Assembly: GCA_965237685.1 (NCBI GenBank)
Contig: CBDEGF010000003.1
Location: 1,276,069 to 1,340,068 of the forward strand
From: Candidatus Marinacidobacterales bacterium
GTDB lineage: Bacteria; Acidobacteriota; Vicinamibacteria; Marinacidobacterales; SMYC01
Length of the DNA: 64,000 nt
Direction: 5' to 3'
The position numbers were made by a program, and so were the translations under genes. Below are positions 16,137 to 46,901 of the stretch, piece by piece (within the stretch, counting starts at the first letter, position 1; each line of letters begins with the position of its first letter). Under the pieces are notes generated by a model that had not been told where the DNA came from, ran no database searches, and worked only from the letters and a program-made list of their open reading frames with translations.

Positions 16137-16162
16137 GTGTCCTTGCGGTAGTAGTGCGTGAG
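16137..16162. repeat. IS66-family copy A left terminal inverted repeat
   Basis: gtgtccttgcggtagtagtgcgtgag pairs with the reverse complement of 19638-19663 (24 of 26 positions). Confidence 0.8.
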
Positions 16163-16286
16163 AACGTGGGGGCGATTCGGTAAGCTGAACGCCGGGTGTG
16201 TTGTTTTTCTCGCGGGCAGAGAGAGAGGGAAAAAAGGACTGGACAAACGCTGGCTGACTGTGTAACCTCAGGCTGGGAGGAAAACA

Positions 16287-17201
16287 GTGACCCAGGCAGG
16301 AAACGCTGCACTCGACACCGCAGCCAAGCGACCCACCTTTTGCGGCACGACCGTGACCGCCGAGGAATGGAGCGTGCTGACGGAGATCATCGCCACGTGT
16401 GGTCTGTCCCGGCACGAGCTGGCGCGCACGATCTGTGAGGGCCTGGGGTGGGTTCGTCGGAACGGCAATCTCAAGACCCGGGAATGCTACGAGTACCTGG
16501 AGGTTGTCGAAGCGAAGGGGCTGGTGACGTTGCCCCCGCGTCACGAGCAGCGGCGCCGCGGACCGACGAGCATCCACTACACGAAGGCTGGTCGCGAGCG
16601 GCCACGGCGTGAGGGCAAGCTATCGGACGTCGCTCCGGTGATGCTGGGCTTGGTGGCGAACGCTGAGGAGCGAGCGCTATGGAGGGAACTGGTCGCGCGT
16701 TACCACTACCTGGGCCACAAGGTGGCCTTTGGCGCGCACCTGCGGTACTTGGTCTGGATGTCGAATCCTCGGCGGGAGCTCTGTGGGTGCGTGCAGTTCT
16801 CCTCGGCGGCGCGGTGGCTTCAGGCGCGTGACGGCTTCATCGGTTGGGATGACGCAACGCGGCAGAAGAACCTTCCCCGGGTGGTCAACAACAGTCGGTT
16901 CCTGATCCTGCCGTGGCTTTCCATCAAAGGCCTCGCGAGTCACGTGCTGTCGTTGGCAGCGCGAGTGGTGGTCGATGACTGGGAGGAAGCCTACGGGGTG
17001 AGGCCGGTGTTGCTCGAGACGTTTGTGGAGAGGGAGCGTTACGAGGGGACGTGCTATCTGGCAGCGAACTGGGTGGAGGTGGGAGTGACTTCGGGCCGGG
17101 GCCGGATGGACCGGCACAAGAGAAAAGCCGAAGCGGTGAAAACATGCTTGGTGTATCCGCTGGTGCGTGAGTTTCGCCGAGAGCTCGGCGTTTCGCGATG
17201 A
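16287..17201 (+). CDS. IS-borne accessory protein (winged-helix-like N-terminus plus a conserved C-terminal domain; possibly DUF4338-like, uncertain)
   Basis: GTG start with a GGGAGG RBS. The stop overlaps the tnpC ATG (ATGA). Present in both IS copies. WSVLTEIIATCGLSRHELARTICEGLGW...HYLGHKVAFGAHLRYLVW...NSRFLILPWLSIKGLASHVLS. Confidence 0.55.
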   Translation: MTQAGNAALDTAAKRPTFCGTTVTAEEWSVLTEIIATCGLSRHELARTICEGLGWVRRNGNLKTRECYEYLEVVEAKGLVTLPPRHEQRRRGPTSIHYTKAGRERPRREGKLSDVAPVMLGLVANAEERALWRELVARYHYLGHKVAFGAHLRYLVWMSNPRRELCGCVQFSSAARWLQARDGFIGWDDATRQKNLPRVVNNSRFLILPWLSIKGLASHVLSLAARVVVDDWEEAYGVRPVLLETFVERERYEGTCYLAANWVEVGVTSGRGRMDRHKRKAEAVKTCLVYPLVREFRRELGVSR

Positions 17202-18751
17202 AGGTCGAGCGGGCCGAGCTCCTGCGCCTGGAAGAGCGGCTGTCGAAAGGGGAGATTCCCGAGGATGCGTGTCCGGTGCTGCTCGAGGCGGTGCGTCATC
17301 TGCTGCGATGTCGCTATCGTCGAGGCGCTGGCATGGCGACAACGGAACGTCGCGCGAAACGCACGAAGGCAAAGGGGAAAGGGAAGAACAAGGGCCACGG
17401 GCGCAACGGGGCCAAGGACTACCCTGGTGCCGAGCACGTAGCGGTTTCGCATCCCGAGCTGAAGGCGAGCGGCCCCTGCCCCGAGCCACTGTGCCGGGGC
17501 AAGCTCTACGACACCCATGCGGCGAACAAGGATGTGGAGCTGAAGGCTCAGCCGCCGATCCAGGCGACGGTGTACGAGCGCCAGATGCTGCGATGCGCAA
17601 GTTGCCAGAAGACGTTCACAGCGCCACTTCCGTCTCAGGCCTGGGCGAGCAAGTACCATCCGAGTGTGGACGCGGTCGTTTCGGTGTTGCGCTACGCCAT
17701 GGGCATGCCCCACCACCGCCTGGCGCAGTGGCAAAAGTGGGCGGGGGTTCCGTTTGCCGCCTCCACGCAGTTCGAGCGGGTCGAAGCGATGGCGAATGCC
17801 GTGTTCCCGGTCTTCCGCCACATGGAGACGATAGCCGCGAACCGGCCGCTGGTTCACAGTGACGACACCGGCGCACGGATCCTCACGTTGATGGCGGAGA
17901 ACGAGACCTTGACTCAAGGCAAAGGCGAGCGCACGGGCATCTTCACCACGGGCATTGTTGCCCGCGGCTTGGACGCCACGCTTGCTCCGATCATCCTGTA
18001 CGCGAGCGGACGACGGCATGCGGGCGAAAACATGGACCGGCTCCTGAATCAGCGCACCGTTCAGGAGAGCGATGTCATCCATATGGCCGACGCCTCCTCG
18101 ATGGCACCGCGCTCGCCGCGACGGATTACCGCCAAGTGCATGGTGCACGCACGCCGCTACTTCTTCGAGGCCGAGCCAGCCTTCCCCGAACACTGCGAGC
18201 GGGTGCTCGAGGACATCGCGACCATCTACCGCAACGACGACGAAACGCGCGACATGACCCGCGATGCGCGGCTTGCATATCACCAGCAACACAGCCGGCC
18301 GGTGATGGATGCGCTCTACGAGTGGATCGAAAAGCAGTTCCGCGAGCGCGTGGTGGAGCCCAACAGCCGCCTTGGAAAAGCCTTTTCCTACGTCAAAAAT
18401 CACTGGCAAGGGCTAACCCGCTTCCGCGAAGTGCCGGGCGTGCCCCTCGACAACAACGAGGTCGAGCAGGAGCTGAAGCCCTCACAACGGCATCGCAAGA
18501 ACTCGCTCTTCTTCAAGACCCAGGCAGGCGCCGACGTGGGCGACGTGCTCCTGAGCATGATCCGCACCGCGGTAAAAAACGGTGTCGCCCCGGTGCACTA
18601 TCTGACGAACATCTCCATGCACGCTCGAGACGCTAGAGCAGCACCCGAGTCGTGGCTGCCTTGGAGCTACCAGAAGACGTTGGAAAGGCTCAACCGACCC
18701 GCCGCCACGGCTCGGCCATCCCCGCTCGCAGCGGAAGTCCGTTGTAGATAA
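17198..18751 (+). CDS. tnpC: IS66-family transposase TnpC (517 aa)
   Basis: N-terminal leucine-rich/basic region. Zinc-finger pair CPEPLCRG...CASCQKTF. HSDDTGARIL DDE region. C-terminal ...ESWLPWSYQK, typical of IS66 TnpC. Confidence 0.9.
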   Translation: MKVERAELLRLEERLSKGEIPEDACPVLLEAVRHLLRCRYRRGAGMATTERRAKRTKAKGKGKNKGHGRNGAKDYPGAEHVAVSHPELKASGPCPEPLCRGKLYDTHAANKDVELKAQPPIQATVYERQMLRCASCQKTFTAPLPSQAWASKYHPSVDAVVSVLRYAMGMPHHRLAQWQKWAGVPFAASTQFERVEAMANAVFPVFRHMETIAANRPLVHSDDTGARILTLMAENETLTQGKGERTGIFTTGIVARGLDATLAPIILYASGRRHAGENMDRLLNQRTVQESDVIHMADASSMAPRSPRRITAKCMVHARRYFFEAEPAFPEHCERVLEDIATIYRNDDETRDMTRDARLAYHQQHSRPVMDALYEWIEKQFRERVVEPNSRLGKAFSYVKNHWQGLTRFREVPGVPLDNNEVEQELKPSQRHRKNSLFFKTQAGADVGDVLLSMIRTAVKNGVAPVHYLTNISMHARDARAAPESWLPWSYQKTLERLNRPAATARPSPLAAEVRCR

Positions 18752-19043
18752 GCACCGCCAACTGCTCGGCGGGTAGCGCCGCAACGCCATCCGTCGTCTG
18801 ACGCGGCCACCACTGCAGGCGCCCCTTCGAGAAACGCTTCTGGCACAACCAAAAGCCCTGGCCGTCGTAGACCAATAGTTTGAGGGCCGTGCCTGAACGG
18901 TTGCGGAAAACGAATAGCGTTCCGAGGAATGGGTCGAGCTGGAACTGTTGCCGGCACACACAAGCCAAAGAATCGATGCCCTTGCGGAAATCGACGGGCT
19001 CGCAGGCAACCAGCACCTTCAGCTGGGGAACGAGCTGGATCAT
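18690..19043 (-). CDS. tnpB: IS66-family TnpB (orf2-like). Its 3' end overlaps the tnpC 3' end convergently by ~60 bp.
   Basis: MIQLVPQLKVLVACEPVDFRKGIDSLACVCRQQFQLDPFLGTLFVFRNRSGTALKLLVYDGQGFWLCQKRFSKGRLQWWP matches the IS66 Orf2 pattern. The ATG overlaps the tnpA stop (ATGA). Confidence 0.85.
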   Translation of the reverse strand: MIQLVPQLKVLVACEPVDFRKGIDSLACVCRQQFQLDPFLGTLFVFRNRSGTALKLLVYDGQGFWLCQKRFSKGRLQWWPRQTTDGVAALPAEQLAVLIYNGLPLRAGMAEPWRRVG

Positions 19044-19582
19044 GCTCGGGAGCTGCCTTCCAGCGCGCCGAGCACGAAACGACACACGGCTTCGACCAAC
19101 TCATTCTCACCCTCGCCGCTCGCCGTCACGACCGTGAGGCTCCCCGCTGCGCTCTCCACCGTCAGACGGCATCTGCTCGCTCCATGCTGAACCTCGCCGA
19201 GCGGCGGTGTCATCATGCCGCCCCCTAAGCCCATGCCGAACTGCGGCAGCTCGACGAACGCGTTGCCACTTGGAGCTAACGCCGTGACCCGCTCCGCCGC
19301 GCTCCGATCCTGTACTGTGCGCGGGGACCGACCCGTAGCACCCGTTCGCCCGTGCCCCTTGAAACGCTTCTCGCCCACAACGGCCCCTCCACTCTCTCGG
19401 ACCTGTTTGAATCGCGCCGCATTGACTCGGAGATGACTGCAGATCGTGCTCGGCGCATACCGATCGAGCAACCCCAGCGCCGCTTTCCACAACTCCTCCG
19501 GGATCAGCCGTCCGTGTGGCTTCGCCCGCCATGCTTCGAACTGTTTCACAACGTCTTCGAGTTCTGCCTTCTTTGAGCGCAT
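19040..19582 (-). CDS. tnpA: IS66-family TnpA (orf1-like)
   Basis: 180-aa ORF directly inside the right TIR and upstream of tnpB. It has a basic N-terminus (MRSKKAELEDVVKQFEAWRAKPHGRLIPEELWKAA). The same ORF is in copy B. Confidence 0.7.
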   Translation of the reverse strand: MRSKKAELEDVVKQFEAWRAKPHGRLIPEELWKAALGLLDRYAPSTICSHLRVNAARFKQVRESGGAVVGEKRFKGHGRTGATGRSPRTVQDRSAAERVTALAPSGNAFVELPQFGMGLGGGMMTPPLGEVQHGASRCRLTVESAAGSLTVVTASGEGENELVEAVCRFVLGALEGSSRA

Positions 19583-19637
19583 CGATGGCCTCCTTGAGCA
19601 ATCTCTCCGCTCAGCTTACGAACCCAACAGCACCTAA

Positions 19638-19663
19638 GTCACGCACTGCTGCCGCAAGGACAC
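19638..19663. repeat. IS66-family copy A right terminal inverted repeat
   Basis: gtcacgcactgctgccgcaaggacac. Confidence 0.8.
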
Positions 19664-36000: not shown

Positions 36001-38397
36001 ACGGCCGATCTGCTTCGCTTCACGCCGGAGACCCGGGCTGCCGCCACGCTGTTCTGGGCTCTGTACGAGGACCGAACGCAGCGAAGCTACTGGGAGAACC
36101 AGGCGAAGAGTCTGGTGAGGCTGCGATCCCAGTTCGCGGGGAGCGGCGCGGCGCGCGGCCTGGGAGAAGAGCTCACCGGGGCCATGAAGGTCTTTTTCGA
36201 GAACATGGGCGTCGAGATACCGGATGACGCGCTGCGTCTGGCCGGCGCCTATCTCCTCGAGGAGATCGCCAAGGAGCCCCAGCGCTTCGTTCTGAGCGCC
36301 GAAGCCAAAGCGCTCCAGAACGAGTTCGAGCAGCATTTGCGCGCCTCCGGCACCGATCGCGATTTCGAGCAGGACATGCGCTCGTTACGGGACGACCCGG
36401 TGCGACGGTACCGGCTGGCGATCTCCTGGCTCGAGGGCTACTTGAAGCATATCGGCGCTCTCGAGCCGCTTCGGCACGTGCTCGCCGAGACGGTCGCGGC
36501 CACCCTGACCGAGGGTGTCATCAGCCGCGAAACCTCGAGTGCTCTTCACGCGGTCGAGCTCGACGGGTTGCTGGGCCAGCACCCGCGCATCGCGAGCGGC
36601 AAGATGACGCTCCAGCTCGACGAGTTCCTCTCGCGTCTGGGAACGTTCCGGCACGAGCGCGTGCCGGGCTTCCGTCGCTTCCAGGCGGCGAGGCACGCTG
36701 TGCTCGAGAGCGAGCGGAAGAAGCTCCGTCTCGATGAGTACAAAGCCAAAGTGATGTCCGCCTTCGTGAGAAACCACCTCATCAACGAGGTCTATCTTCC
36801 GGTCATCGGGGACAACCTGGCGAAGCAGATGGGCGCCCTCGGCGCCGGCAAGCGCACCGACCTCATGGGCATGCTGCTTCTCATCTCTCCGCCCGGCTAT
36901 GGCAAGACGACGCTCATGGAGTACATCGCCAACCGCCTCGGCCTGGTGTTCATGAAGATCAACGGGCCTTCCCTGGGGCATTCCGTGACGTCGCTCGATC
37001 CCGGCGAAGCCCCCAACGCCACCGCGCGACAGGAAGTGAACAAGCTCAACCTCGCCTTCGAGATGGGCAACAACGTGCTCCTGTATATTGATGATATCCA
37101 GCATACCCATCCGGAGTTCCTGCAGAAGTTCATCTCCTTGTGCGACGCCCAGCGGAAAGTGGAGGGTGTCTGGAAGGGTGAGACGCGCACCTACGACTTG
37201 CGCGGCAAGAAGTTCGTGGTGTGTATGGCGGGCAATCCCTACACCGAGTCCGGCGAAAAGTTCCAGATCCCCGACATGCTGGCCAATCGTGCCGACACCT
37301 ACAACCTCGGTGACATCCTCGAAGGCAAGGACGAGCTCTTCGCACTCAGTTACATCGAGAACAGTCTCACCTCGAACTCTTATCTGGCAACTTTGACCAG
37401 CCGGGAGCCAGGTGACATCGATAAGCTGGTGCGCATGGCACGCGGCGAGCCCGTACAGGCCGATCAGCTCTCCCACTCCTACTCGGCGGTGGAGCTGAAC
37501 GATCTGCTCGAAGTCCTGAAGAAGCTTCTGCACGTGCAGGGGCTCTTGCTGCGCGTGAACCAGCAGTACATCCTTTCGGCGTCGCAGCAGGACGTCTACC
37601 GTACCGAGCCACCCTTCAGGCTCCAGGGAAGCTACCGCAACATGAACAAGCTGGCGGAAAAAGTCGTTCCCGCGATGAACGCAAAGGAGCTGGAGGCTCT
37701 CATCGACGACCACTACACGGGCGAGGCCCAGACGCTTACGACCGGGGCGGAGGAGAACCTCCTCAACCTGGCGGAGATGCGCGATCGCCTCTCACCCGAA
37801 CAAGCGGCCCGCTGGGACGAGATCAAGAAGGCCTTCGTCCGCGTCCAGCGCATGGGAGGTGGCGATGACGACCCTGTCACCCGACTGACCGGACAGTTGA
37901 GCCTCGTCTCGGAGCGACTCGAGGACATTGGTGAGAGCATCGACAAAGCAGCGAACGATCGACCGGCCGTGGCAGTGGCTTCCGGTGGAGCACTCGCGGC
38001 TGCGCCAGCCGCACCCGCGAACGTCGATGTAAAGATCGACTTCGAGCCGTATCTGAACAAGCTGAACGAGTTGCTCGAGGCGCTCAAGAACGGCCAGGAG
38101 AAGGCGCCGGTCGTGGCAGGGTCCATCACCGACGAGCCGCCGCCGGACTACGAGCTCATCTCGCGTGAGGCCTACCTCATCCAGAACACGCTGATTCCCC
38201 TCCTTCAGTTCATGGCGCACCGCTTCAGGGGCTACCGGGACGTCGAGGATCCCAAGGTGAAGGCCCTCATCTCGTCCCTGGAGAAGGTGGACGACCTGAA
38301 CGAGCTGGTGAGCGCGCTCGAGAAGATCAACGTCTCCGCACTCGCTGACATGACCGAGGACGAACTCGAAGAGGCGGAGCAGCAGGATCCACCGTAG
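33019..38397 (+). CDS. giant (1792 aa) multidomain protein: N-terminal beta-rich domain, ~800-aa helical/coiled-coil region, AAA_5 (dynein/MoxR-type) ATPase module near residues 1280-1480, and a helical C-terminus
   Basis: Uninterrupted 5379-nt ORF. ATG is 10 nt after the flotillin stop. Walker A LLISPPGYGKTTLMEY. Walker B NNVLLYIDDIQHTHPEFLQKF. Sensor-1 KKFVVCMAGNPYTE, plus FQIPDMLANRADTYNL (the R finger / LxxRF-like motif of AAA_5). No VWA/MIDAS partner domain seen. Confidence 0.8.
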   Translation: MTTESEAGTVSIERGTYEIIRDRLLGQGKELSTRAEALNKKRLELFGGTELAVIGNERIRTANNCVPRDIKEVGPFLLFGYNVFIGLKTETAVEDVFSLHRFEETDGGFTFNAVAPDSPDYFLSDPRLLKDFRELYEYYKNSRLIQLRRLEGKILAVFQIGEKISDIRAFRWAVDVDGKITYIDNRGERDHTFPPQHDFEWTPTSREDHVAGRHPHVSILDEVFVETVGGDLTVKVEDNTESGTGVYAEPVDEPDQSLDDAEIHYAKVGTLILLKVRPYNETTWRYLVFNTRTHKVNRIDAIGQACLELPEDHGLIFPGGYYLQSGTTKTFDRNITGMEFLRTIRSPNGEDVLYVFHQRKEGRTILLPYNMIRKEVPNPLYCHGFSLFPDGKAVIFRADSDEPTRVHRMQIWRTPFMSDEHMTVAPVSDSYLQKVGNADLVRGVSDCLSLVRMVNEQTPTRQKYEDLVAAAERVIDGYYWLDHQEVGEPAGVVREIHETAEAIIDEFEKVEALRQLAREAIAETEANIQEIFRGIYPDSWTTIDRYVEYLSKLRSARGHAITLREKRYVDLTRLDELEQEVIERFDALSARAVEFLTGEAALAPYHEQIATLESGVDALSKVTEANEHQEKLQAVSDGLDLLTEVVTSLDIEDATVRTQILENISEIMGGLNRVRALIAIRRKELLGKESIAEFGVQFQLLSQSVTSALSLSDTPEACDEQLPKMMLQLEELETRFSEFDEFVTELTTKREEIYEAFTSKKQSLVDRRQRRAQRLLQAAERILQGVIRRAETFETDDDLNAFFAADAMVAKLRATADKLRKLGDSVNADEVETRLKTAREEAARGLRDRRDIYEEGASVIKLGKHRFSVNTQPLELTMVPRDGGMAFHLTGTGFYETVYDETFSATKDFWNQELVSETKEVYRGEYLAASILEDAELGRAALSIAKLQEAALADGQLLSLVRDYASERYDEGYERGLHDADATLILSKLLPMHQTADLLRFTPETRAAATLFWALYEDRTQRSYWENQAKSLVRLRSQFAGSGAARGLGEELTGAMKVFFENMGVEIPDDALRLAGAYLLEEIAKEPQRFVLSAEAKALQNEFEQHLRASGTDRDFEQDMRSLRDDPVRRYRLAISWLEGYLKHIGALEPLRHVLAETVAATLTEGVISRETSSALHAVELDGLLGQHPRIASGKMTLQLDEFLSRLGTFRHERVPGFRRFQAARHAVLESERKKLRLDEYKAKVMSAFVRNHLINEVYLPVIGDNLAKQMGALGAGKRTDLMGMLLLISPPGYGKTTLMEYIANRLGLVFMKINGPSLGHSVTSLDPGEAPNATARQEVNKLNLAFEMGNNVLLYIDDIQHTHPEFLQKFISLCDAQRKVEGVWKGETRTYDLRGKKFVVCMAGNPYTESGEKFQIPDMLANRADTYNLGDILEGKDELFALSYIENSLTSNSYLATLTSREPGDIDKLVRMARGEPVQADQLSHSYSAVELNDLLEVLKKLLHVQGLLLRVNQQYILSASQQDVYRTEPPFRLQGSYRNMNKLAEKVVPAMNAKELEALIDDHYTGEAQTLTTGAEENLLNLAEMRDRLSPEQAARWDEIKKAFVRVQRMGGGDDDPVTRLTGQLSLVSERLEDIGESIDKAANDRPAVAVASGGALAAAPAAPANVDVKIDFEPYLNKLNELLEALKNGQEKAPVVAGSITDEPPPDYELISREAYLIQNTLIPLLQFMAHRFRGYRDVEDPKVKALISSLEKVDDLNELVSALEKINVSALADMTEDELEEAEQQDPP

Positions 38398-38470
38398 ACG
38401 CATCGGTTAGAGTTACAATCAACACAGCGGTACCCCTTGCAGCGAGCGCATTCGAGCTAAGGAGGCAAGC

Positions 38471-39229
38471 ATGGGCCTTTGGGCACGCATCAAATCCGTC
38501 TGGTACGCCCTGCTCAACCAATCGGTCACCGACATGGAAGACAAGCACGTCATCGCCCTGGCCGAGAGCAAGCTCCGGCAAGCTACCGAGCGGCTCAAAG
38601 ATGCCCGGCAAGGGCTCATCAACTACCAGACGCTGGTCTTGAAAGTGCAGCAGCAGGTCGTGCGCGAGAAGGCTCGTATCCAGAGCCTTACCGCACAAAT
38701 AAAAACGCACCTCAAAGCAGGCCAGGAGGACCTGGCGGCTCAGCTCGCCATGGAGCTCGCCCAGGTTAACAACGAGCTCGCAAGCAACGAGGAGCAGCTC
38801 ACACAACACCAGAGTGCCTACGAGAATAACCTCCTGAAGATGAAGGCCGCCCTCAAGGAGATCCAGTCTACGAAGAAGGAGCTGGAGAAGATGAAGGCGG
38901 CGCTGCAGATGGAGAGCGCTCTGGCCGAGGTGTCGGAGACGGCGGGCACCCTCAACACGAGCTTCGACGTGTCCTCCGACCTCGGAGATATCATGGGTCG
39001 CGTGGACGACCAGATCAACAAAGCCCGGGCGCGGTCCAAAGTCGCAGACGATTTGGGAGATCAGGACCTCGAGCGGCTGAAAGCCCAGCAGGAGGCCGAA
39101 AAAGCGCAGGCGCAGGACCTTCTCGAGCAGTTCAAGATCGAGCAGGGGCTGGTCGAGCCCTCCTCGACTCCTACCGAAAAGACCGTTGGCCGAGAGCGGG
39201 AAGCCGCGACCGAAGGAGACGGTAACTAG
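38471..39229 (+). CDS. pspA: PspA/IM30/Vipp1 family protein (bacterial ESCRT-III superfamily)
   Basis: GGAGG RBS 6 nt upstream. MGLWARIKSVWYALLNQSVTDMEDKHVIALAESKLRQATERLKDARQGLINYQTLVLKVQQQVVREKARIQSLTAQIK... is the hallmark PspA N-terminal amphipathic helix plus coiled-coil hairpin. Confidence 0.85.
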   Translation: MGLWARIKSVWYALLNQSVTDMEDKHVIALAESKLRQATERLKDARQGLINYQTLVLKVQQQVVREKARIQSLTAQIKTHLKAGQEDLAAQLAMELAQVNNELASNEEQLTQHQSAYENNLLKMKAALKEIQSTKKELEKMKAALQMESALAEVSETAGTLNTSFDVSSDLGDIMGRVDDQINKARARSKVADDLGDQDLERLKAQQEAEKAQAQDLLEQFKIEQGLVEPSSTPTEKTVGREREAATEGDGN

Positions 39230-39277
39230 ACGACTTCCGGAAAATAAACGCAAAGGCGCCAAGGCGCAAAGAACGGA

Positions 39278-41044
39278 ATGGCTACATCGCCCTCAGTCCT
39301 CACCCGCGACTCACCCACCTGGGCGCAAGAGCTGGCCCACCGCTACGTCAGCGGCGCCGCCAGCGTGTTCCTCGCCCACGGCAACGTCCACGATCTCGTA
39401 CCGGCGGGCGACGACCGGGCGTTCCTTTCGCTCGAGGACTACTTCGCGACCGAGCTCTTTGGAAGTCGCGACATCGTCATTCTCTACGACCGCGGCAGCG
39501 GTATTCGCTTCCTCGCTCCCGGAAACAACGACCGCCGGCAGGCAATGCGCCAGGACTTCCAGCGAACGCTCGAAACCATCGACATGGTCAACGAGACCAG
39601 CTTCGCCAAATCCCGCCCCAAGGATCCGACGCTCGTCTTCGAGCTCCTGGACCGGTACATCCTCCACAAGCTCCTGGAGACGCCGCGTGACGGAAACCGG
39701 AAGAGCCTGGCGATTCTCATCCGCTACCTCGAGACCATCACTCCGGCGGTGGACGGCTCATGGCTCACCGGTGCGCTGGGAGAGAACCTTCTCAAGGTCT
39801 TGAACTGGGCGAACGAGCCCACGATTCGAAGTGGCGACGTCACGTTTTGCCTCGTCACGGAAAATTTAGCCGACATCAGCCGGCGGCTCGTGGAGAATCC
39901 GTTCATCTCGAAAGTCGAGATCCCGCTCCCCGACCAGCCGACGCGCCGACGCTACGCCGAGCTCCTCTTGTCGTCGCGCCAGGAGACATCGAAGCTCAGC
40001 GCCGCGTCACTAGCGACAGAAGCCAACGGGCTCACCCTGGTCGGTCTCTCTCAGGCGATCGGCCAGGCTCGAAGCGAGTCGGACAGCTTCGGGCTCGAGT
40101 CTCTCAGGCGCGCAAAGAAAGAGCTCATCGAGAAGCAGTGTTTCGGCCTGGTCAAGTTCATGGCTCCTCGCCACGATCTCTCCGCAGTGGTTGCGCCGAA
40201 GGGCGTCAAGAAGCGACTCGAGCAGGACGTCATGCTCTTCAAGAAGGGCCGCTTCGACGCCCTTCCCATGGGCTATCTCCTGTGTGGTGTGATCGGCACC
40301 GGCAAGACCTTCACCACCACTTGTCTAGCAGGCAGTCTCGGCATCCCAGCCGTTGTCTTCAAGAACCTCCGGAGCAAGTGGGTGGGAAGCTCCGAAGGCA
40401 ACATGCAGAAGGTTCTCTCGGTCATCAAAGCGCTCGGCCCGGTGGTCGTGATCATCGACGAGGCCGACGCGGCGCTGGGCACACGCGCGGCCTCGGGAGA
40501 TAGTGGTACGTCGAGTCGGATGTTCGCGATGATCTCGTCCCTGATGAGTGACACCCAATACCGCGGCCGCATTCTGTGGATGCTTCTGACATGCCGGCCC
40601 GATCTCCTGCCCGTCGACTTGAAGCGGCAAGGTCGCTGCGAGGTGCACATTCCCCTGTTCTCGCCCGAGACCGAAGCGGAGCGCAAGGAGATGTTTCTCG
40701 CCATGGCGAGCAAGAACGGCGTCGACGTCGGCTCGGGCGACGTGCCTTCCCTGCCCGAAGGACTCTCCGGAGCGGACATCGAGAGTCTTCTCGTGCAGTG
40801 TGTTCGTCGAGCCGCCATCGAGGGCGCACCGAATCCGACCGCCGAGCACATGCGCCGAGCGGTAGAAGGTTTCATCAGCCCGGACTACGGTCTCGAGAAA
40901 GAGCTCCAGCGGCTGGTCGCCGTGCAGGAGTGTACGGACCGGGACTTCCTGCCCAGGAAGTGGCGCAAGGAGCTCTCGTCGGCCGAAGGGGCCTCCGCCA
41001 TCACCAAGCGCATCAGCGAGCTTCAGGCCCTTCTCGGCTCGTGA
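39278..41044 (+). CDS. tandem-AAA ATPase: a degenerate N-terminal AAA-like domain (D1) plus a canonical classic-AAA C-terminal domain (D2). Cdc48/Vps4-like disassemblase architecture.
   Basis: D1: FLAHGNVHD sits in place of Walker A, but TFCLVTENLADISRRLVENPFISKVEIPLPDQPTRRRYAELLL retains the AAA lid/SRH pattern. D2: Walker A LLCGVIGTGKTFTT. Walker B VVVIIDEADAAL. SRH LLTCRPDLLPVDLKRQGRCEVHIPL. No GAFTGA and no C-terminal HTH, so it is not a PspF-type sigma54 activator. Confidence 0.8.
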   Translation: MATSPSVLTRDSPTWAQELAHRYVSGAASVFLAHGNVHDLVPAGDDRAFLSLEDYFATELFGSRDIVILYDRGSGIRFLAPGNNDRRQAMRQDFQRTLETIDMVNETSFAKSRPKDPTLVFELLDRYILHKLLETPRDGNRKSLAILIRYLETITPAVDGSWLTGALGENLLKVLNWANEPTIRSGDVTFCLVTENLADISRRLVENPFISKVEIPLPDQPTRRRYAELLLSSRQETSKLSAASLATEANGLTLVGLSQAIGQARSESDSFGLESLRRAKKELIEKQCFGLVKFMAPRHDLSAVVAPKGVKKRLEQDVMLFKKGRFDALPMGYLLCGVIGTGKTFTTTCLAGSLGIPAVVFKNLRSKWVGSSEGNMQKVLSVIKALGPVVVIIDEADAALGTRAASGDSGTSSRMFAMISSLMSDTQYRGRILWMLLTCRPDLLPVDLKRQGRCEVHIPLFSPETEAERKEMFLAMASKNGVDVGSGDVPSLPEGLSGADIESLLVQCVRRAAIEGAPNPTAEHMRRAVEGFISPDYGLEKELQRLVAVQECTDRDFLPRKWRKELSSAEGASAITKRISELQALLGS

Positions 41045-41259
41045 CGCTCGCAGTCGATTCCCATGCGGGCTACCGCGGGGAAGAGACACCACGCCGCTTC
41101 TGCATCGAGGGTCGCTGGGTGGCAGTCGACGAGATTCTCGGGCGTTGGCGTACTCCGGAGCATTGCTACTTCAAAGTTCGCTCGGAAGATGGCGCCACGT
41201 GCACCCTTCGGCAAGACGTCGCGTCGGGCACCTGGGAGCTTCATGCGATTTCCTCGTGA
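41041..41259 (+). CDS. small (72 aa) hypothetical protein, translationally coupled to the tandem-AAA gene
   Basis: GTG overlaps the TGA of the upstream gene (GTGA). TLAVDSHAGYRGEETPRRFCIEGRWVAVDEILGRWRTPEHCYFKVRSEDGATCTLRQDVASGTWELHAISS. Looks like a small beta-rich domain (W/Y/F-rich). Ends 39 nt before the convergent DUF790 gene. Confidence 0.4.
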   Translation: MTLAVDSHAGYRGEETPRRFCIEGRWVAVDEILGRWRTPEHCYFKVRSEDGATCTLRQDVASGTWELHAISS

Positions 41260-41300
41260 CACGCCCAGTAACCTTCCCTACACTGAGTTGGAGGATACGC

Positions 41301-41597
41301 TCACAGAGTATTGCCGGGCGCTTCCATGATCTCCAGCAACCTCGCCGCATCGATGCGCCTGCGGAACTGCAGGACGGGCGTGTTGGGTGGCAGGTCTGAT
41401 TCGGAACACTGTCGCTCCTCGTCGATGCAGAGAATGAGATTAGGGATACGCGCAGCGCGCAGGAACGCGAGCTTTTTGAAGATGTAGTCGGGAGTCCAGA
41501 ATCCTACTATCTCGACGAACCAGGCGCGGGCAGGATCGATACGATGGCGCAAAAAAAAGTCGGGGAAGATGAGCTTGCCCCCCGCCGCAATTGCGTC
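41301..41597 (-). pseudogene. DUF790/Bax1-like nuclease, C-terminal part (3' portion of the gene split by IS copy B)
   Basis: Reading across the IS in frame: ...DWDVIREPDA | IS | IAAGGKLIFPDFFLRHRIDPARAWFVEIVGFWTPDYIFKKLAFLRAARIPNLILCIDEERQC... (restriction-endonuclease-like core E..D..K-type region). Confidence 0.6.
41590..41597. repeat. target-site duplication (ATTGCGTC), left of IS copy B
   Basis: Identical octamer at 44731-44738. Confidence 0.85.
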
Positions 41598-41678
41598 GTG
41601 TCCTTGCGACAGCAGTGCGTGACTTAGGTGCTGTTGGGTTCGTAAGTTGAGCGGAGAGATTGCTCAAGGAGGCCATCG

Positions 41679-42221
41679 ATGCGCTCAAAGAAGGCAGAAC
41701 TCGAAGACGTTGTGAAACAGTTCGAAGCATGGCGGGCGAAGCCACACGGACGGCTGATCCCGGAGGAGTTGTGGAAAGCGGCGCTGGGGTTGCTCGATCG
41801 GTATGCGCCGAGCACGATCTGCAGTCATCTCCGAGTCAATGCGGCGCGATTCAAACAGGTCCGAGAGAGTGGAGGGGCTGTTGTGGGCGAGAAGCGTTTC
41901 AAGGGGCACGGGCGAACGGGTGCTACGGGTCGGTCCCCGCGCACAGTACAGGATCGGAGCGCGGCGGAGCGGGTCACGGCGTTAGCTCCAAGTGGCAACG
42001 CGTTCGTCGAGCTGCCGCAGTTCGGCATGGGCTTAGGGGGCGGCATGATGACACCGCCGCTCGGCGAGGTTCAGCATGGAGCGAGCAGATGCCGTCTGAC
42101 GGTGGAGAGCGCAGCGGGGAGCCTCACGGTCGTGACGGCGAGCGGCGAGGGTGAGAATGAGTTGGTCGAAGCCGTGTGTCGTTTCGTGCTCGGCGCGCTG
42201 GAAGGCAGCTCCCGAGCATGA
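41679..42221 (+). CDS. tnpA: IS66-family TnpA (copy B)
   Basis: Identical to copy A TnpA apart from rare substitutions. Confidence 0.7.
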   Translation: MRSKKAELEDVVKQFEAWRAKPHGRLIPEELWKAALGLLDRYAPSTICSHLRVNAARFKQVRESGGAVVGEKRFKGHGRTGATGRSPRTVQDRSAAERVTALAPSGNAFVELPQFGMGLGGGMMTPPLGEVQHGASRCRLTVESAAGSLTVVTASGEGENELVEAVCRFVLGALEGSSRA

Positions 42222-42571
42222 TCCAGCTCGTTCCCCAGCTGAAGGTGCTGGTTGCCTGCGAGCCCGTCGATTTCCGCAAGGGCATCGATTCTTTGGCTTG
42301 TGTGTGCCGGCAACAGTTCCAGCTCGACTCATTCCTCAGAACGCTATTCGTTTTCCGCAACCGTTCAGGCACGGCCCTCAAACTATTGGTCTACGACGGC
42401 CAGGGCTTTTGGTTGTGCCAGAAGCGTTTCTCGAAGGGGCGCCTGCAGTGGTGGCCGCGTCAGACGACGGATGGCGTTGCGGCGCTACCCGCCGAGCAGT
42501 TGGCGGTGCTTATCTACAACGGACTTCCGCTGCGAGCGGGGATGGCCGAGCCGTGGCGGCGGGTCGGTTGA
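42218..42571 (+). CDS. tnpB: IS66-family TnpB (copy B)
   Basis: MIQLVPQLKVLVACEPVDFRKGIDSLA... Two substitutions versus copy A (DSFLRTLF vs DPFLGTLF). Confidence 0.8.
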   Translation: MIQLVPQLKVLVACEPVDFRKGIDSLACVCRQQFQLDSFLRTLFVFRNRSGTALKLLVYDGQGFWLCQKRFSKGRLQWWPRQTTDGVAALPAEQLAVLIYNGLPLRAGMAEPWRRVG

Positions 42572-43934
42572 GCCTTTCCAACGTCTTCTGGTAGCTCCAA
42601 GGCAGCCACGACTCGGGTGCTGCTCTAGCGTCTCGAGCGTGCATGGAGATGTTCGTCAGATAGTGCACCGGGTCGACACCGTTTTTTACCGCGGTGCGGA
42701 TCATGCTCAGGAGCACGTCGCCCACGTCGGCGCCTGCCTGGGTCTTGAAGAAGAGCGAGTTCTTGCGATGCCGTTGTGAGGGCTTCAGCTCCTGCTCGAC
42801 CTCGTTGTTGTCGAGGGGCACGCCCGGCACTTCGCGGAAGCGGGTTAGCCCTTGCCAGTGATTTTTGACGTAGGAAAAGGCTTTTCCAAGGCGGCTGTTG
42901 GGCTCCACCACGCGCTCGCGGAACTGCTTTTCGATCCACTCGTAGAGCGCATCCATCACCGGCCGGCTGTGTTGCTGGTGATATGCAAGCCGCGCATCGG
43001 GGGTCATGTCGCGCGTTTCGTCGTCGTTGCGGTAGATGGTCGCGATGTCCTCGAGCACCCGCTCGCAGTGTTCGGGGAAGGCTGGCTCGGCCTCGAAGAA
43101 GTAGCGGCGTGCGTGCACCATGCACTTGGCGGTAATCCGTCGCGGCGAGCGCGGTGCCATCGAGGAGGCGTCGGCCATATGGATGACATCGCTCTCCTGA
43201 ACGGTGCGCTGATTCAGGAGCCGGTCCATGTTTTCGCCCGCATGCCGTCGTCCGCTCGCGTACAGGATGATCGGAGCAAGCGTGGCGTCCAAGCCGCGGG
43301 CAACAATGCCCGTGGTGAAGATGCCCGTGCGCTCGCCTTTGCCTTGAGTCAAGGTCTCGTTCTCCGCCATCAACGTGAGGATCCGTGCGCCGGTGTCGTC
43401 ACTGTGAACCAGCGGCCGGTTCGCGGCTATCGTCTCCATGTGGCGGAAGACCGGGAACACGGCATTCGCCATCGCTTCGACCCGCTCGAACTGCGTGGAG
43501 GCGGCAAACGGAACCCCCGCCCACTTTTGCCACTGCGCCAGGCGGTGGTGGGGCATGCCCATGGCGTAGCGCAACACCGAAACGACCGCGTCCACACTCG
43601 GATGGTACTTGCTCGCCCAGGCCTGAGACGAAAGTGGCGCTGTGAACGTCTTCTGGCAACTTGCGCATCGCAGCATCTGGCGCTCGTACACCGTCGCCTG
43701 GATCGGCGGCTGAGCCTTCAGCTCCACATCCTTGTTCGCCGCATGGGTGTCGTAGAGCTTGCCCCGGCACAGTGGCTCGGGGCAGGGGCCGCTCGCCTTC
43801 AGCTCGGGATGCGAACCCCCGCCCACTTTTGCCACTGCGCCAGGCGGTGGTGGGGCATGCCCATGGCGTAGCGCAACACCGAAACGACCGCGTCCACACT
43901 CGGATGGTTGCCAACGACAGCACGTGACTCGCAA
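42510..43934 (-). pseudogene. tnpC: IS66-family TnpC, copy B. The N-terminal ~85 aa are replaced by a duplicated internal segment.
   Basis: Matches copy A from ...HPELKASGPCPEPLCRGKLYD onward. The N-terminus MRVTCCRWQPSECGRGRFGVALRHGHAPPPP is junk derived from the duplication. Confidence 0.75.
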
Positions 43935-44580
43935 GGCCTTTGATGGAAAGCCACGGCAGGATCAGGAACCGACTGTTGTTGACCACCCGGGGAAGGTTCT
44001 TCTGCCGCGTTGCGTCATCCCAACCGATGAAGCCGTCACGCGCCTGAAGCCACCGCGCCGCCGAGGAGAACTGCACGCACCCACAGAGCTCCCGCCGAGG
44101 ATTCGACATCCAGACCAAGTACCGCAGGTGCGCGCCAAAGGCCACCTTGTGGCCCAGGTAGTGGTAACGCGCGACCAGTTCCCTCCATAGCGCTCGCTCC
44201 TCAGCGTTCGCCACCAAGCCCAGCATCACCGGAGCGACGTCCGATAGCTTGCCCTCACGCCGTGGCCGCTCGCGACCAGCCTTCGTGTAGTGGATGCTCG
44301 TCGGTCCGCGGCGCCGCTGCTCGTGACGCGGGGGCAACGTCACCAGCCCCTTCGCTTCGACAACCTCCAGGTACTCGTAGCATTCCCGGGTCTTGAGATT
44401 GCCGTTCCGACGAACCCACCCCAGGCCCTCACAGATCGTGCGCGCCAGCTCGTGCCGGGACAGACCACACGTGGCGATGATCTCCGTCAGCACGCTCCAT
44501 TCCTCGGCGGTCACGGTCGTGCCGCAAAAGGTGGGTCGCTTGGCTGCGGTGTCGAGTGCAGCGTTTCCTGCCTGGGTCAC
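43399..44580 (-). pseudogene. IS accessory protein, copy B (chimeric 3' end after ...HVLSLA)
   Basis: The first ~255 aa are identical to copy A. The reading frame then runs into out-of-frame tnpC sequence. Confidence 0.6.
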
Positions 44581-44730
44581 TGTTTTCCTCCCAGCCTGAG
44601 GTTACACAGTCAGCCAGCGTTTGTCCAGTCCTTTTTTCCCTCTCTCTCTGCCCGCGAGAAAAACAACACACCCGGCGTTCAGCTTACCGAATCGCCCCCA
44701 CGTTCTCACGCACTACTACCGCAAGGACAC

Positions 44731-44738
44731 ATTGCGTC
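44731..44738. repeat. target-site duplication (ATTGCGTC), right of IS copy B
   Basis: Identical octamer at 41590-41597. Confidence 0.85.
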
Positions 44739-45605
44739 CGGCTCACGAATGACGTCCCAATCAGGCGCCACACGAGCCATGTCGCGGGCGAATCGTTCCT
44801 CGAGGCGGCTATCGTACCGCCGGGCCTCCGATGAAGCAAACAGCGGATCGCCGGACTGAAGTTGAAAGGTCACGTTCTCGCCGCGCAGCACCGCCAGGGC
44901 GGAAAGGTCGAACCGAGGACAGCGAGCCAGAAGTGGCACCAATTCGGCAAGAGCTCTACCGTAGACGAGCGTACGGCGGAAGAGCGAGAAAGGACCAGAG
45001 ATCGAAAGTCGCGCCGCGCCGGACTCGCCTTGAACCGTACAGATGAGCCCCCGAAGCCGCGCCTGGCGCACGACGACCCGTGCGTTTTCGTAAACCGAGA
45101 GGTCAACCTCCGCGGCTCGCCGCAGCACGGATTGCGCGAGCGCAAGATTGACGCGAAGCGCGAGCTCTTGGGGCCCTGGCGGCTCATCCGGCGCACGAAC
45201 CAGACGCTCGTCCGGGAGGTCGGAAAACAACGCTAGCTCCAGATCAGCCGGACTCACGACGAGGCGGCGAGCTGCAAGAGCCAGGACATCATCGCGGCGC
45301 CCCCGCGGAGCCTCCGCAGCCAGTCCGAACACCTCGGCACGGGCTCGCACCGCAGCAAGCCGACTCGGTGCCTCAGATTTCCAGAGCCGCTTCAACACCA
45401 CCGTCGCCGCGCGGAGCTTCCTCCAAGGCGCCGCGCAAGCAAAGGGCTCTCGCAATCGCCTATCCAGCTCCCGCTGACGTCTTCCTTCGAAGCGCCGGAA
45501 CTCGTCGATCAAGACACGCAACCACGCGTGATCGTGCGCTCCAAGGTAGTCCAGGCGCGCAATACGGTCGCGAACCCTAATCGGCAAGAAAGCTTCGGCT
45601 AACAA
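44731..45605 (-). pseudogene. DUF790/Bax1-like nuclease, N-terminal part (5' portion of the gene split by IS copy B)
   Basis: LLAEAFLPIRVRDRIARLDYLGAHDHAWLRVLIDEFRRFEG... Probable TTG start at ~45605, overlapping the last codons of the helicase gene. ORF-track ATG 45752 would overlap the helicase by 175 nt. Confidence 0.55.
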
Positions 45606-46212
45606 GACTTTCAGCCCGCCGCACCGCCTGGCGCACTTCAGACGTTCCTCGCACGACCATCTCGTAGATGAGCGCGCGTTTCCCTTCGCCCGGCCGCAAG
45701 ACGCGTCCCACGCGTTGGACGTGCTCACGCTCGCCCATTGTTCCGGCGACAACGATCCCGATCTCCGTGTCTGGAACGTCGACTCCTTCGTTCAACACCC
45801 GGGCGGAGACAAGCACCCGGAGCTTGCCTTCACGGAAGCGTTCGAGTACCGCTTCCCGTTCCCTTCGCCGGATGTCACAAGTGAAAGGCATGATGAGGTG
45901 TTTGCGGGCAACCTCGTAGGAAGTCTCGTTGTCCGCCACGAACACGATGACCTTCTGCGCCCGGTGACGTGCAAGCAGCACGCCAAGCGCCTTACGCTTG
46001 GTGTGCGGATAAGCGAGCAGTTGCCTGGCGCGGCGCCACGCTGCGATCGCACGACGTCCGTCGTCCGAGCGCGCTGCCATCCGGACAAAGGTCTCCCATG
46101 ACGCGCCAGGATGAAGTTGGCGAAAACGTCGGAACGGTTCCCGATACAACCGGCTCCACTCCTCGTAGTCGCGGCGCTCCTCGGTTGTGAGATCGAGTCG
46201 CAGGGTCACCAC
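45577..46212 (-). pseudogene. XPB-type superfamily-2 helicase, C-terminal half (motif III to motif VI) only
   Basis: VTLRLDLTTEERRDYEEW (TATPER-like), KVIVFVADNETSYEVARKHL (motif IV), ERFREGKLRVLVSARVLNEGVDVPDTEIGIVV (motif V), GTMGEREHVQRVGRVLR (motif VI). There is no Walker A anywhere upstream. Confidence 0.6.
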
Positions 46213-46221
46213 GTCGAAGGG

Positions 46222-46476
46222 ACGATTTGTCTCGTTCCCACCCGTGCCCTGCTTGAGCAGTGGGTGCGGGTCGTCCGTGAGAGCTATCAGGGACCGGTTG
46301 GTTGTTTCGGCGATGGGGAGCGCGTGCTCCGACCAGTGACGGTGGCCACGTTCGAGAGCGCCTACCGCTACATGGACCGGATCGGCAATCAGTTCGATCT
46401 GCTAATCGTCGACGAGGCCCATCACTTTGGTGGCGGTGCGCGCGACGAAGCCTTGGAGTCCATCACCTCCTCCTGA
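46222..46476 (+). pseudogene. XPB-type helicase motif Ia-II segment in inverted orientation (flipped in place)
   Basis: TICLVPTRALLEQWVRVVRESY...PVTVATFESAYRYMDRIGNQFDLLIVDEAHHFGGG lies on the plus strand. The rest of the helicase is on the minus strand starting 10 bp away. Confidence 0.55.
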
Positions 46477-46694
46477 AAGGCTCGGCTTGCACCAGTCCGC
46501 GTGCGGCCTCACGGATCTCCGCCAGAACCGCAAGATGCTCGTTGGTCCAGGTAGTGTCCGGCGCGGAAGCGTCGTGTTCATCGCCGAGGCCGGCCGTCTT
46601 CGAGGTGCGAAGACGAGACAGAATCTGATCCCGTATCCGTCGTGCGTTCGTCGATGCCCTCGATCAGGCCGCAATGGGGGCTCATCGATCGCCC

Positions 46695-46901
46695 GTGCTG
46701 CCCTTCGGGTTGTGGAAGCACGCGACCCTTCATGCCCGGCAGATCGAGCCCCAGGACATGCGCGATGGTGGGCGCGAGATCGTAGATGCTCACTGCCCGG
46801 ATACGGCGGCCGACCTTCACTCTGGGACCGATCGCCAGAAACGGAACCTTCATCTCCGCGTAGGCCGGGAGGTGGCCGTGCCCGTGATACGCCGTTTCCG
46901 A
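46695..46901 (-). pseudogene. alkaline-phosphatase-superfamily (nucleotide pyrophosphatase/phosphodiesterase-like) C-terminal ~70-aa fragment
   Basis: SETAYHGHGHLPAYAEMKVPFLAIGPRVKVGRRIRAVSIYDLAPTIAHVLGLDLPGMKGRVL matches the C-terminal end of the NPP/AP family. There is no catalytic N-terminal part. Confidence 0.4.

What the first reader, a model, noticed from the sequence alone, without database searches (positions are those of the whole stretch)
41598..44730. Second IS copy is inverted, has its own distinct TSD, and carries a deletion plus an internal 95-bp duplication that destroys the tnpC N-terminus
Copy B differs from copy A by only a few SNPs, indicating recent transposition, but lacks ~690 bp across the accessory/tnpC junction.

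It also duplicates a ~95-bp tnpC segment (43515-43610 matches 43815-43905). This makes it a non-autonomous copy that could still be mobilised in trans by copy A.

The two inverted copies are 22 kb apart and bracket the novel operon, creating a substrate for inversion or composite-transposon-like mobilisation of 19664-41597.
Basis: seen in the sequence. Interest (0 to 1): 0.55.

Follow-up and report, generated by a model that had tools for sequence, protein, structure and literature searches.

The report
Defective, internally rearranged IS66-family copy
This is a real, recent insertion of a multicopy IS66-family mobile element into a DUF790 gene; it has lost part of two of its own genes through an internal deletion patched with a 96-base copy of nearby sequence, which is ordinary transposon decay.

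Summary
Copy B (41598-44730, 3133 bp) is a genuine inverted second copy of the 3527-bp IS66-family element at 16137-19663. It has its own 8-bp target duplication, ATTGCGTC. A related strain's contig (L019) has the empty site with a single ATTGCGTC.

In this sequence, 487-490 bp of copy A (16959-17445/8) are replaced by a 93-96-nt copy of tnpC sequence (43813-43908 = 43511-43606), a net loss of 394 bp. There are 9-10 substitutions. The rearrangement removes DruA codons 225-304 and TnpC codons 1-83.

A near-identical public contig (L020) has copy B at the same site but without 302 bp, which is a plain 696-bp deletion. The duplication therefore differs between assemblies. It is either a collapsed direct repeat or an assembler disagreement.

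- Copy B is not a daughter of copy A. It shares variants with other copies, such as L022.
- Its junctions occur at no other locus among 21 copies or fragments examined, 14 of which are also rearranged or truncated.
- It carries a private mutation in the conserved terminal 12-mer.
- Intact, distinct target duplications and synteny with the IS-free strain argue against both a fixed inversion and a composite transposon.

This is ordinary IS decay and of low interest.

The parts
41590..41597 (.). Left copy of the 8-bp target-site duplication ATTGCGTC of copy B
   Evidence: L019 carries a single ATTGCGTC at the empty site.
41598..41623 (+). Right-end inverted repeat (IRR) of copy B, GTGTCCTTGCGACAGCAGTGCGTGAC, with a private G-to-A change at position 12 (window 41609)
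   Evidence: Every other complete end recovered in this genome has G at position 12, as do the ends found in L025, L028 and L029.
41679..42221 (+). 180-aa tnpA-position ORF, identical in protein to copy A's. It has no family match.
42218..42571 (+). tnpB (IS66 Orf2-like, 117 aa), the variant with P38S and G41R
   Evidence: The same variant is found in L022, L023 and L024.
42510..43814 (-). Remnant of tnpC: native-frame codons 84-517 plus the stop codon. The DDE_Tnp_IS66 domain is intact, but the start codon and the first 83 codons are missing.
43511..43606 (-). Segment X in its native position inside tnpC (equals A 17655-17750)
43607..43812 (-). Segment Y (equals A 17449-17654). Together with the second X, these are the 302 bp absent from the public allele L020.
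43813..43908 (-). Second copy of X, the templated filler at the deletion junction. It is read out of the tnpC frame. The X-to-Y junction has TTC microhomology and the L-to-X junction is blunt.
43909..44580 (-). Remnant of the DruA/DUF4338-like accessory gene: codons 1-224 of 304
44705..44730 (-). Left-end inverted repeat (IRL) of copy B, identical to copy A's
44731..44738 (.). Right copy of the target-site duplication ATTGCGTC
41341..45907 (-). Approximate span of the DUF790 target gene interrupted by copy B, from the stop codon near 41341 to the first in-frame start, a TTG, near 45907. Once the IS and one target-duplication copy are removed it reads as about 390 aa. The ORF is uninterrupted in L019.
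16137..19663 (+). Copy A, the full-length reference: druA-like 16287-17201 (+), tnpC 17198-18751 (+, 517 aa), tnpB 18690-19043 (-), tnpA-like 19040-19582 (-). Target duplication GGTATTCA.

Best explanation
Copy B is a genuine, evolutionarily recent insertion of a multicopy IS66-family element. The host genome is probably Vicinamibacteria or 'Ca. Marinacidobacterales' (Acidobacteriota). The element carries a DruA/DUF4338-like gene and tnpC on one strand, and tnpB and a tnpA-position ORF converging on the other strand. It landed in a DUF790 gene and made an 8-bp target duplication.

The copy is defective because of one complex internal rearrangement. About 490 bp across the druA 3' end and tnpC 5' end were lost. 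The gap was bridged by a 93-96-nt copy of tnpC sequence taken from 207 bp further on.

The junctions are blunt on one side and have 3 nt of microhomology on the other. This fits two non-homologous template switches, or end-joining with templated filler, and does not fit homologous recombination. That mechanism is inferred.

The rearrangement created 96-bp direct repeats 302 bp apart. A recombination or slippage event between them, or an assembler collapse, gives exactly the 696-bp plain-deletion allele seen in the near-identical public contig.

The copy cannot make full-length TnpC or DruA. In principle it depends on intact copies (A, L022). It shows no sign of having moved since the rearrangement. 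It is one of many decayed copies of this element in the genome.
For: - Structure, substitutions and junctions.
- Family assignment: PF03050 at 3e-48, NF033517 at 217 bits (cutoff 180), PF05717 and NF033819.
- Target duplications.
- Empty site: L019 1-10284 equals window 31314-41597 and L019 10277-12004 equals window 44731-46458, overlapping by exactly the 8 bp. The DUF790 ORF is uninterrupted there.
- Second allele: the same insertion, target duplication and L-to-X junction occur in ctg481036, but 302 bp shorter. The X-to-Y junction occurs only in the window. Because it is a novel junction, it cannot be produced by mis-traversing paths through L-X-R and full-length copies. L-X-R, in contrast, follows from L-X-Y-X-R in a single step.
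- Lineage: copy B shares variants with L022, L023b and L024, not with copy A.
- Genome-wide decay: 14 of 21 copies or fragments are rearranged or truncated, and the deletion junctions measured have 0-1 nt of microhomology.
- Host taxonomy hint.
Against: - No reads are available, so the X-Y-X arrangement rests on a single assembly. The public contigs are low coverage (5-9x by their names), and the two assemblies may share reads.
- The mechanism that made the rearrangement is inferred from junction anatomy only.
- Whether TnpC residues 1-83 are essential is untested. The NCBIfam IS66 model starts matching only at residue 65, and a 474-aa ORF with the whole DDE domain remains.
- Whether the deletion arose before, during or after insertion cannot be decided.
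Confidence: 0.8

Rival explanations
1. The 96-bp duplication, with the 206 bp between the repeats, is an artefact of the window's assembly. The true allele would be the plain 696-bp deletion seen in the public contig.
For: - ctg481036 (L020/L021) differs from the window by only 2 substitutions in 14 kb, yet lacks exactly window 43607-43908.
- Coverage in the public assembly is about 5x by contig name.
- The two X copies are 100% identical.
Against: - The X-to-Y junction (GGGGGTTC|GCATCCC) is a novel adjacency. It is absent from every full-length copy and from the L020 allele, so graph mis-traversal or concatenation of overlapping ends cannot create it.
- Collapse of a short direct repeat, by an assembler or in the cell, is the simpler direction of change.
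Confidence: 0.25
2. Copy B was already deleted when it transposed. It would then be a non-autonomous derivative mobilised in trans by an intact copy, as the first reader suggests is possible.
For: - Both ends and a perfect target duplication are present.
- Intact TnpC sources exist: copy A and L022.
- Another internally deleted copy, L018, also has a perfect target duplication.
Against: - Neither junction was found at any other of the 21 copies or fragments examined.
- Copy B's close relatives by shared variants (L022, L023b, L024) have different structures.
- The census is incomplete, because the index lists many more copies than could be read.
Confidence: 0.15
3. Copies A and B form a composite transposon that brought 19664-41597 in as a unit, or the segment has inverted between them.
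For: Two 99.7%-identical inverted copies lie 21.9 kb apart.
Against: - The outer flanks differ (GGTATTCA vs ATTGCGTC), and each copy has its own matching target duplication. Recombination between copies would have swapped the flanks; PMC6778807 uses this logic for IS66.
- In the IS-free strain L019, the inner flank of B runs straight into the outer flank.
- GC content is uniform across the region.
- Both public contigs show the same isomer as the window.
Confidence: 0.03

Closest known systems
IS66 family insertion sequences (IS66, IS679, ISEc22 and relatives)
   Same: - The DDE transposase TnpC matches the IS66 models.
- A TnpB (IS66 Orf2) accessory protein is present.
- There is a small upstream ORF in the tnpA position.
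- It makes an 8-bp target duplication and has terminal inverted repeats. PMC6778807 gives tnpABC and an 8-bp duplication as the family pattern.
   Different: - tnpA and tnpB lie on the opposite strand and converge on tnpC. This layout is conserved in relatives L025, L028 and L029.
- An extra DruA/DUF4338-like gene overlaps the tnpC start.
- The element is 3.5 kb long. I recall typical IS66 elements as about 2.5-2.7 kb.
- TnpC is at most 39% identical to any plasmid-borne IS66 transposase.
- The ends begin GTGTCC. The classical IS66 ends I recall begin GTAAGCG.
Internally deleted non-autonomous derivatives of DNA transposons (Ds from Ac, P-element deletions, IS-derived MITEs)
   Same: - Both ends are retained and the interior is deleted.
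- The junctions have little or no microhomology.
- Filler DNA was copied from a nearby part of the element.
- Autonomous copies coexist in the same genome.

The comparison with Ds and P elements rests on my own knowledge.
   Different: - The deleted form shows no amplification and occurs at a single locus.
- 3.1 kb is retained, so it is not miniature.
- The transposition chemistry of IS66 is, to my knowledge, unestablished, so gap repair after excision cannot be assumed.
IS66 pairs as recombination substrates in Agrobacterium pAt15955 (PMC6778807)
   Same: Two near-identical IS66-family copies, each with a unique 8-bp duplication, flank a large segment. Whether recombination has occurred can be read from whether the flanks are swapped.
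   Different: Here the copies are inverted, so recombination would invert the segment and not delete it. The flanks are not swapped, so no recombination is recorded in the assembled sequence.
ISKra4-family elements carrying a DruA-like gene (for example L030, a 2674-bp unit in OZ253507.1)
   Same: They share a homologous accessory gene of about 300 aa (DruA/DUF4338, GNAT-like, 44-55% identical) placed directly upstream of the transposase gene.
   Different: The transposase is unrelated. It matches ISKra4 (NF033572, 368 bits) and has no BLASTP similarity to TnpC. These elements have no tnpA or tnpB.

Membership tests
IS66 family insertion sequence | DDE transposase (TnpC) matching the IS66 family models above their curated thresholds | tested here: met
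   Copy A scores PF03050 at 165 bits (cutoff 23.1) and NF033517 at 217 bits (cutoff 180). The copy B remnant scores PF03050 at 166 bits.
IS66 family insertion sequence | TnpB (IS66 Orf2-like) accessory protein | tested here: met
   PF05717 at 99 bits and NF033819 at 94 bits (cutoff 50). Copy B's version carries P38S and G41R.
IS66 family insertion sequence | TnpA ORF upstream of tnpB | tested here: inconclusive
   A 180-aa ORF overlaps the tnpB start, but it matches no Pfam or NCBIfam model. It is conserved at 37% identity in L025.
IS66 family insertion sequence | tnpA-tnpB-tnpC arranged collinearly as one operon | tested here: not met
   tnpA and tnpB are on the strand opposite to tnpC, and the 3' ends of tnpB and tnpC overlap by 62 bp. 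The same layout is seen in L025, L028 and L029.
IS66 family insertion sequence | 8-bp target-site duplication and terminal inverted repeats | tested here: met
   Perfect 8-bp duplications flank A, B, L004, L007, L018, L022 and L025. The inverted repeats are 26 bp with the first 12 nt identical. An empty site is seen in L019.
Non-autonomous element mobilised in trans | Both transposon ends intact | tested here: inconclusive
   The left repeat is identical to the other copies. The right repeat has a private G-to-A change at position 12 of the conserved terminal 12-mer. The effect on transposase binding cannot be tested here.
Non-autonomous element mobilised in trans | Loss of its own functional transposase | tested here: inconclusive
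   The start codon and codons 1-83 are deleted and the filler is out of frame. The N-terminus is conserved in frame in L025. The DDE domain and the zinc-finger-like CxxC motifs remain. Activity is not testable here.
Non-autonomous element mobilised in trans | An autonomous partner in the same genome | tested here: met
   Copy A and L022 encode full-length 517-aa TnpC and 304-aa DruA.
Non-autonomous element mobilised in trans | The same internal junction at two or more loci with different target duplications | tested here: not met
   The L-to-X junction occurs only at this locus (window, L020, L021). The X-to-Y junction occurs only in the window. The census covers 21 copies or fragments and is not exhaustive.
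Composite transposon | One target duplication flanking the whole IS-cargo-IS unit | tested here: not met
   The outer flanks are GGTATTCA and ATTGCGTC, and each IS has its own pair.
Composite transposon | Cargo is absent or displaced in relatives that lack the IS copies | tested here: not met
   L019 lacks copy B but has window 31314-41597 directly continuous with 44731-46458.
Assembly artefact (collapsed or expanded repeat) | The structure is not reproducible in an independent assembly or in reads | tested here: inconclusive
   The insertion, the target duplication and the left deletion junction are reproduced in ctg481036. The 302 bp containing the second 96-mer are not. Reads are not available.

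The most novel reading that the evidence does not exclude
Fourteen of 21 copies or fragments of this IS are internally deleted, inverted or truncated. Their junctions are blunt, and copy B carries templated filler. This pattern may not be slow decay. It could be the signature of error-prone DNA synthesis coupled to IS66-family transposition itself: template switching while the element is copied, or abortive gap repair after excision, as for Ac/Ds and P elements. Defective copies such as B would then be born at transposition. That would give a first sequence-level handle on the still poorly defined IS66 transposition mechanism.
Probability: 0.12. Interest if true: 0.5.

Novelty: new member of a known kind. 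Interest (0 to 1): 0.2.

Why it matters
In itself it matters little. A decayed IS copy that knocks out a DUF790 gene is routine genome biology, and the composite-transposon idea does not hold.

It has three practical uses:
- It is a worked example of a rearranged repeat on which two near-identical assemblies disagree by exactly one direct-repeat unit (302 bp). Anyone using these low-coverage long-read metagenome-assembled genomes should know this.
- It shows that copy A and L022 are the likely autonomous sources in a family where most copies are frameshifted or rearranged.
- It leads to an uncharacterised IS66 lineage whose convergent gene layout and DruA/GNAT-like accessory gene (shared with ISKra4 elements) may deserve separate study.

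Tried and rejected
- Exact 22-mer scans (the IS segment just left of the junction) of genome contigs and metagenome contigs found nothing. The strain is therefore not in those collections, and no wider junction census was possible.
- Exact-protein look-ups failed for copy B's 393-aa DruA fusion ORF, a mis-set tnpB range and the 588-aa AAA gene. The last failed because of one substitution at 40098.
- A look-up of the 361-aa TnpC remnant returned only the public contig, not the window's own source.
- No empty site for copy A was found.
- Literature searches linking IS66 with DUF4338 or DruA found nothing relevant. Han et al. 2001 (PMC95320) is not held.
- I rejected copy A as the parent of B, because the shared variants point to the L022 group.
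- I rejected homologous recombination, and slippage on microhomology, as the origin of the deletion, because the junctions have 0-3 nt of homology.
- I rejected an in-frame DruA-TnpC fusion, because the frames do not match.
- I rejected a tandem duplication as a one-step origin, because X-Y-X requires a non-homologous X-to-Y join.
Full report
**1. What is in the sequence**

A repeat search finds two long inverted matches between 16137-19664 and 41597-44730, plus one exact 96-bp direct repeat at 43511-43606 and 43813-43908.

Reading the ends gives the following:
- Copy A is 16137-19663 (3527 bp), flanked by GGTATTCA on both sides.
- Copy B is 41598-44730 (3133 bp), in the opposite orientation, flanked by ATTGCGTC on both sides.
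- The terminal inverted repeats are GTGTCCTTGCGGTAGTAGTGCGTGAG (left) and GTGTCCTTGCGGCAGCAGTGCGTGAC (right).

A base-by-base comparison gives the following:
- A 16137-16958 equals B 44730-43909, with 1 substitution.
- A 17443-19663 equals B 43818-41598, with 9 substitutions. One of these lies in the junction microhomology.
- A 16959-17445/17448 is absent from B. In its place is a perfect copy of A 17655-17750.

In IS coordinates, copy A reads L(1-822)-D1(823-1312)-Y(1313-1518)-X(1519-1614)-R(1615-3527), and copy B reads L-X-Y-X-R.
- The L-to-X join has no microhomology.
- The X-to-Y join shares TTC, within GGgTTC / GGtTTC.

"Lacks about 690 bp" is wrong for this sequence, where the net loss is 394 bp.

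**2. What the element is**

Copy A encodes four products:
- A 304-aa protein matching Pfam DruA/DUF4338 (1.4e-46), on the + strand.
- A 517-aa TnpC on the + strand, whose ATG overlaps the DruA stop. It scores PF03050 at 3e-48 and NCBIfam IS66 transposase at 217 bits against a cutoff of 180.
- TnpB on the opposite strand (PF05717, NF033819).
- A 180-aa ORF in the tnpA position, also on the opposite strand, with no family match.

The classical IS66 layout is a collinear tnpABC with an 8-bp duplication (PMC6778807). Here tnpA and tnpB converge on tnpC. The same layout occurs in a relative with 70% DNA identity (L025, with its own 8-bp duplication CGTGCAGG) and in L028 and L029.

TnpC is at most 39% identical to plasmid-borne IS66 transposases. 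The nearest named DruA-like proteins come from Vicinamibacteria and 'Ca. Marinacidobacterales' metagenome-assembled genomes.

**3. Copy B is a real insertion**

Removing the IS and one ATTGCGTC restores an ORF of about 390 aa on the - strand. That ORF matches DUF790 end to end (3e-74).

Contig_110 of ERZ25067257 (L019) is 99.6% identical in the flanks and has exactly this empty site. L019 1-10284 equals window 31314-41597, and L019 10277-12004 equals window 44731-46458. The two matches overlap by the 8 bp, and the DUF790 ORF is uninterrupted there.

**4. The duplication differs between assemblies**

Contig ctg481036 of ERZ26167216 (L020/L021) differs from the window by 2 substitutions in 14 kb. 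It carries copy B at the same site, with the same target duplication and the same private right-repeat variant. It reads L-X-R, meaning it lacks window 43607-43908 (302 bp) and is a plain 696-bp deletion.

The L-to-X junction is present in both assemblies. The X-to-Y junction exists only in the window.

X-to-Y is an adjacency found in no other copy, so it cannot arise from mis-threading an assembly graph through L-X-R and full-length copies. L-X-R, in contrast, follows from L-X-Y-X-R by a single loss between the 96-bp direct repeats, either in the cell or in the assembler.

I therefore rank the window allele as the more likely original, and the public allele as its collapse. Without reads this stays an inference. 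It does not apply to the insertion or the deletion.

**5. Consequences for coding**

- DruA is cut after codon 224 of 304. It then runs out of frame to give a 393-aa ORF, whose Pfam match stops at residue 228.
- TnpC loses its start codon and codons 1-83.
- The first X is read two bases out of the native frame. The longest ORF holding the DDE domain (474 aa, TTG start at 43934) therefore begins with about 41 unrelated residues.
- The N-terminus of the 517-aa form is conserved in frame in L025, so it is probably functional. This has not been tested.
- In the public allele, codons 1-152 are gone, including the CxxC pairs.
- Copy B's TnpB carries P38S and G41R. Its TnpA-position protein is identical to copy A's.

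**6. Where copy B sits in the family**

Exact-protein look-ups recovered 21 copies or fragments of the element in ERZ26167216 and the metagenome-assembled genome GCA_965247325.1.
- Seven are full length.
- Only copy A and L022 keep a 517-aa TnpC. The other five full-length copies carry one or both of two single-T insertions, at the positions equivalent to window 17204 and 17328.
- Fourteen are rearranged or truncated. The internal deletions are L014, L016, L018, L024 and B. The inversions are L003, L012 and L013. The truncated copies are L005, L006, L017a, L017b, L023a and L023b.
- The deletion junctions measured have 0-1 nt of microhomology.
- L018 and B keep perfect target duplications. L014 and L016 do not.

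The variant table shows that copy B is not a daughter of A.
- It shares 18923T and 18932A with L022, L023b and L024.
- It shares 19382A and 19614A with L022.
- It shares 16934T with L023b.
- Its only private change is G-to-A at position 12 of the right inverted repeat. That lies inside a 12-mer identical at every other complete end recovered in this genome. The 12-mer is also conserved in L025, L028 and L029, with one exception at position 9 of L028's left end.

**7.

Trans-mobilisation is possible in principle, because both ends are present and intact copies exist. It is unsupported, because the junction is unique to this locus, and the end mutation weakens it.

A composite transposon is contradicted in two ways:
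- Each IS has its own matched duplication and the outer flanks differ.
- The IS-free strain has the inner and outer flanks of B contiguous.

By the same flank-swap logic that PMC6778807 uses for IS66, no inversion between A and B is recorded. The public contigs show the same isomer. The pair remains a potential substrate for RecA-mediated inversion.

**8. Mechanism**

Shown:
- Insertion with an 8-bp duplication into DUF790.
- A deletion with a 96-nt templated insertion.
- Blunt or 3-nt junctions.
- Two alleles differing by one repeat unit.

Inferred:
- The rearrangement arose by two non-homologous template switches, or by end-joining with copied filler.
- The short allele arose by loss between the direct repeats.
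- The copy is non-autonomous.

Unknown: whether the rearrangement happened before, during or after insertion.

**9. Verdict**

The object is an ordinary defective copy of an uncharacterised IS66-family element. Novelty: a new member of a known kind. Interest: low.

Noticed in passing
window 16287-17201; L030 4794-7467; L028-L107: The DruA/DUF4338 (GNAT-like) accessory gene of this IS66-type element has homologues (44-55% identical) in 78 of the 80 GTDB loci kept, none of which has an IS66 gene beside it. The one locus examined in detail, L030, has an ISKra4-family transposase directly downstream, in a 2674-bp unit present at 7 or more copies in OZ253507.1. The same accessory gene therefore travels with two unrelated transposase families. 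NCBI names these proteins 'Druantia anti-phage system protein DruA', which is probably misleading. No paper was found linking DUF4338 to IS elements.
   Followed up: partly
window 17198-19582; L025 5912-8253: tnpA and tnpB lie on the opposite strand to tnpC and converge on it, with a 62-bp overlap between the 3' ends of tnpB and tnpC. The classical IS66 order is a collinear tnpABC. The convergent layout is conserved in relatives down to 70% DNA identity.
   Followed up: partly
window 17204 and 17328 (copy A); L004, L007-L010: Two single-T insertion sites sit in the first 45 codons of tnpC and occur in all four combinations among full-length copies. Only copy A and L022 keep the 517-aa frame. 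This could be real frameshift polymorphism spread by gene conversion, or low-coverage long-read error.
   Followed up: partly
L003, L005, L006, L012-L014, L016-L018, L023, L024: Fourteen of 21 copies or fragments of the IS in the public assembly are internally deleted, inverted or truncated, and the junctions measured are blunt. The L003 inversion and the L024 deletion share the same breakpoint (IS position 1957/1958). L014 and L016 lack target duplications.
   Followed up: partly
window 46456-46719 and 45577-46476; L019 12005-16263: The 264-bp segment 46456-46719 is inverted in L019 relative to the window. L019 also has an insert of about 4 kb there carrying a UPF0236 transposase. The XPB-like helicase gene upstream of DUF790 looks split, with the Helicase_C half on the - strand and a ResIII-like piece on the + strand.
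   Followed up: no
window 34957-35016: The window is not identical to any public contig retrieved. ctg493835 ends at window position 35016 and ctg481036 starts at 34957, so the public assembly breaks inside the 1792-aa DUF3686 gene. Sparse substitutions separate the window from these contigs (16202, 12964, 40098, 41761), and ungapped correspondence to L011 breaks down from about window 23407, probably at an indel.
   Followed up: partly
window 30131-41044: The 'novel operon' between the IS copies encodes an unassigned 280-aa protein, an SPFH/Band7 protein (676 aa), a 1792-aa DUF3686 plus DUF7902 plus AAA ATPase, a PspA/IM30 protein and a 588-aa AAA ATPase. From window 31314 onward, the part that L019 covers, it is syntenic in that IS-free strain, so at least that part is resident chromosome and not IS cargo.
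   Followed up: partly
window 16129-19671: Copy A also interrupts an ORF: a reading frame of about 337 aa on the + strand is restored when the IS and one GGTATTCA are removed. No empty site for copy A was found in public data.
   Followed up: partly
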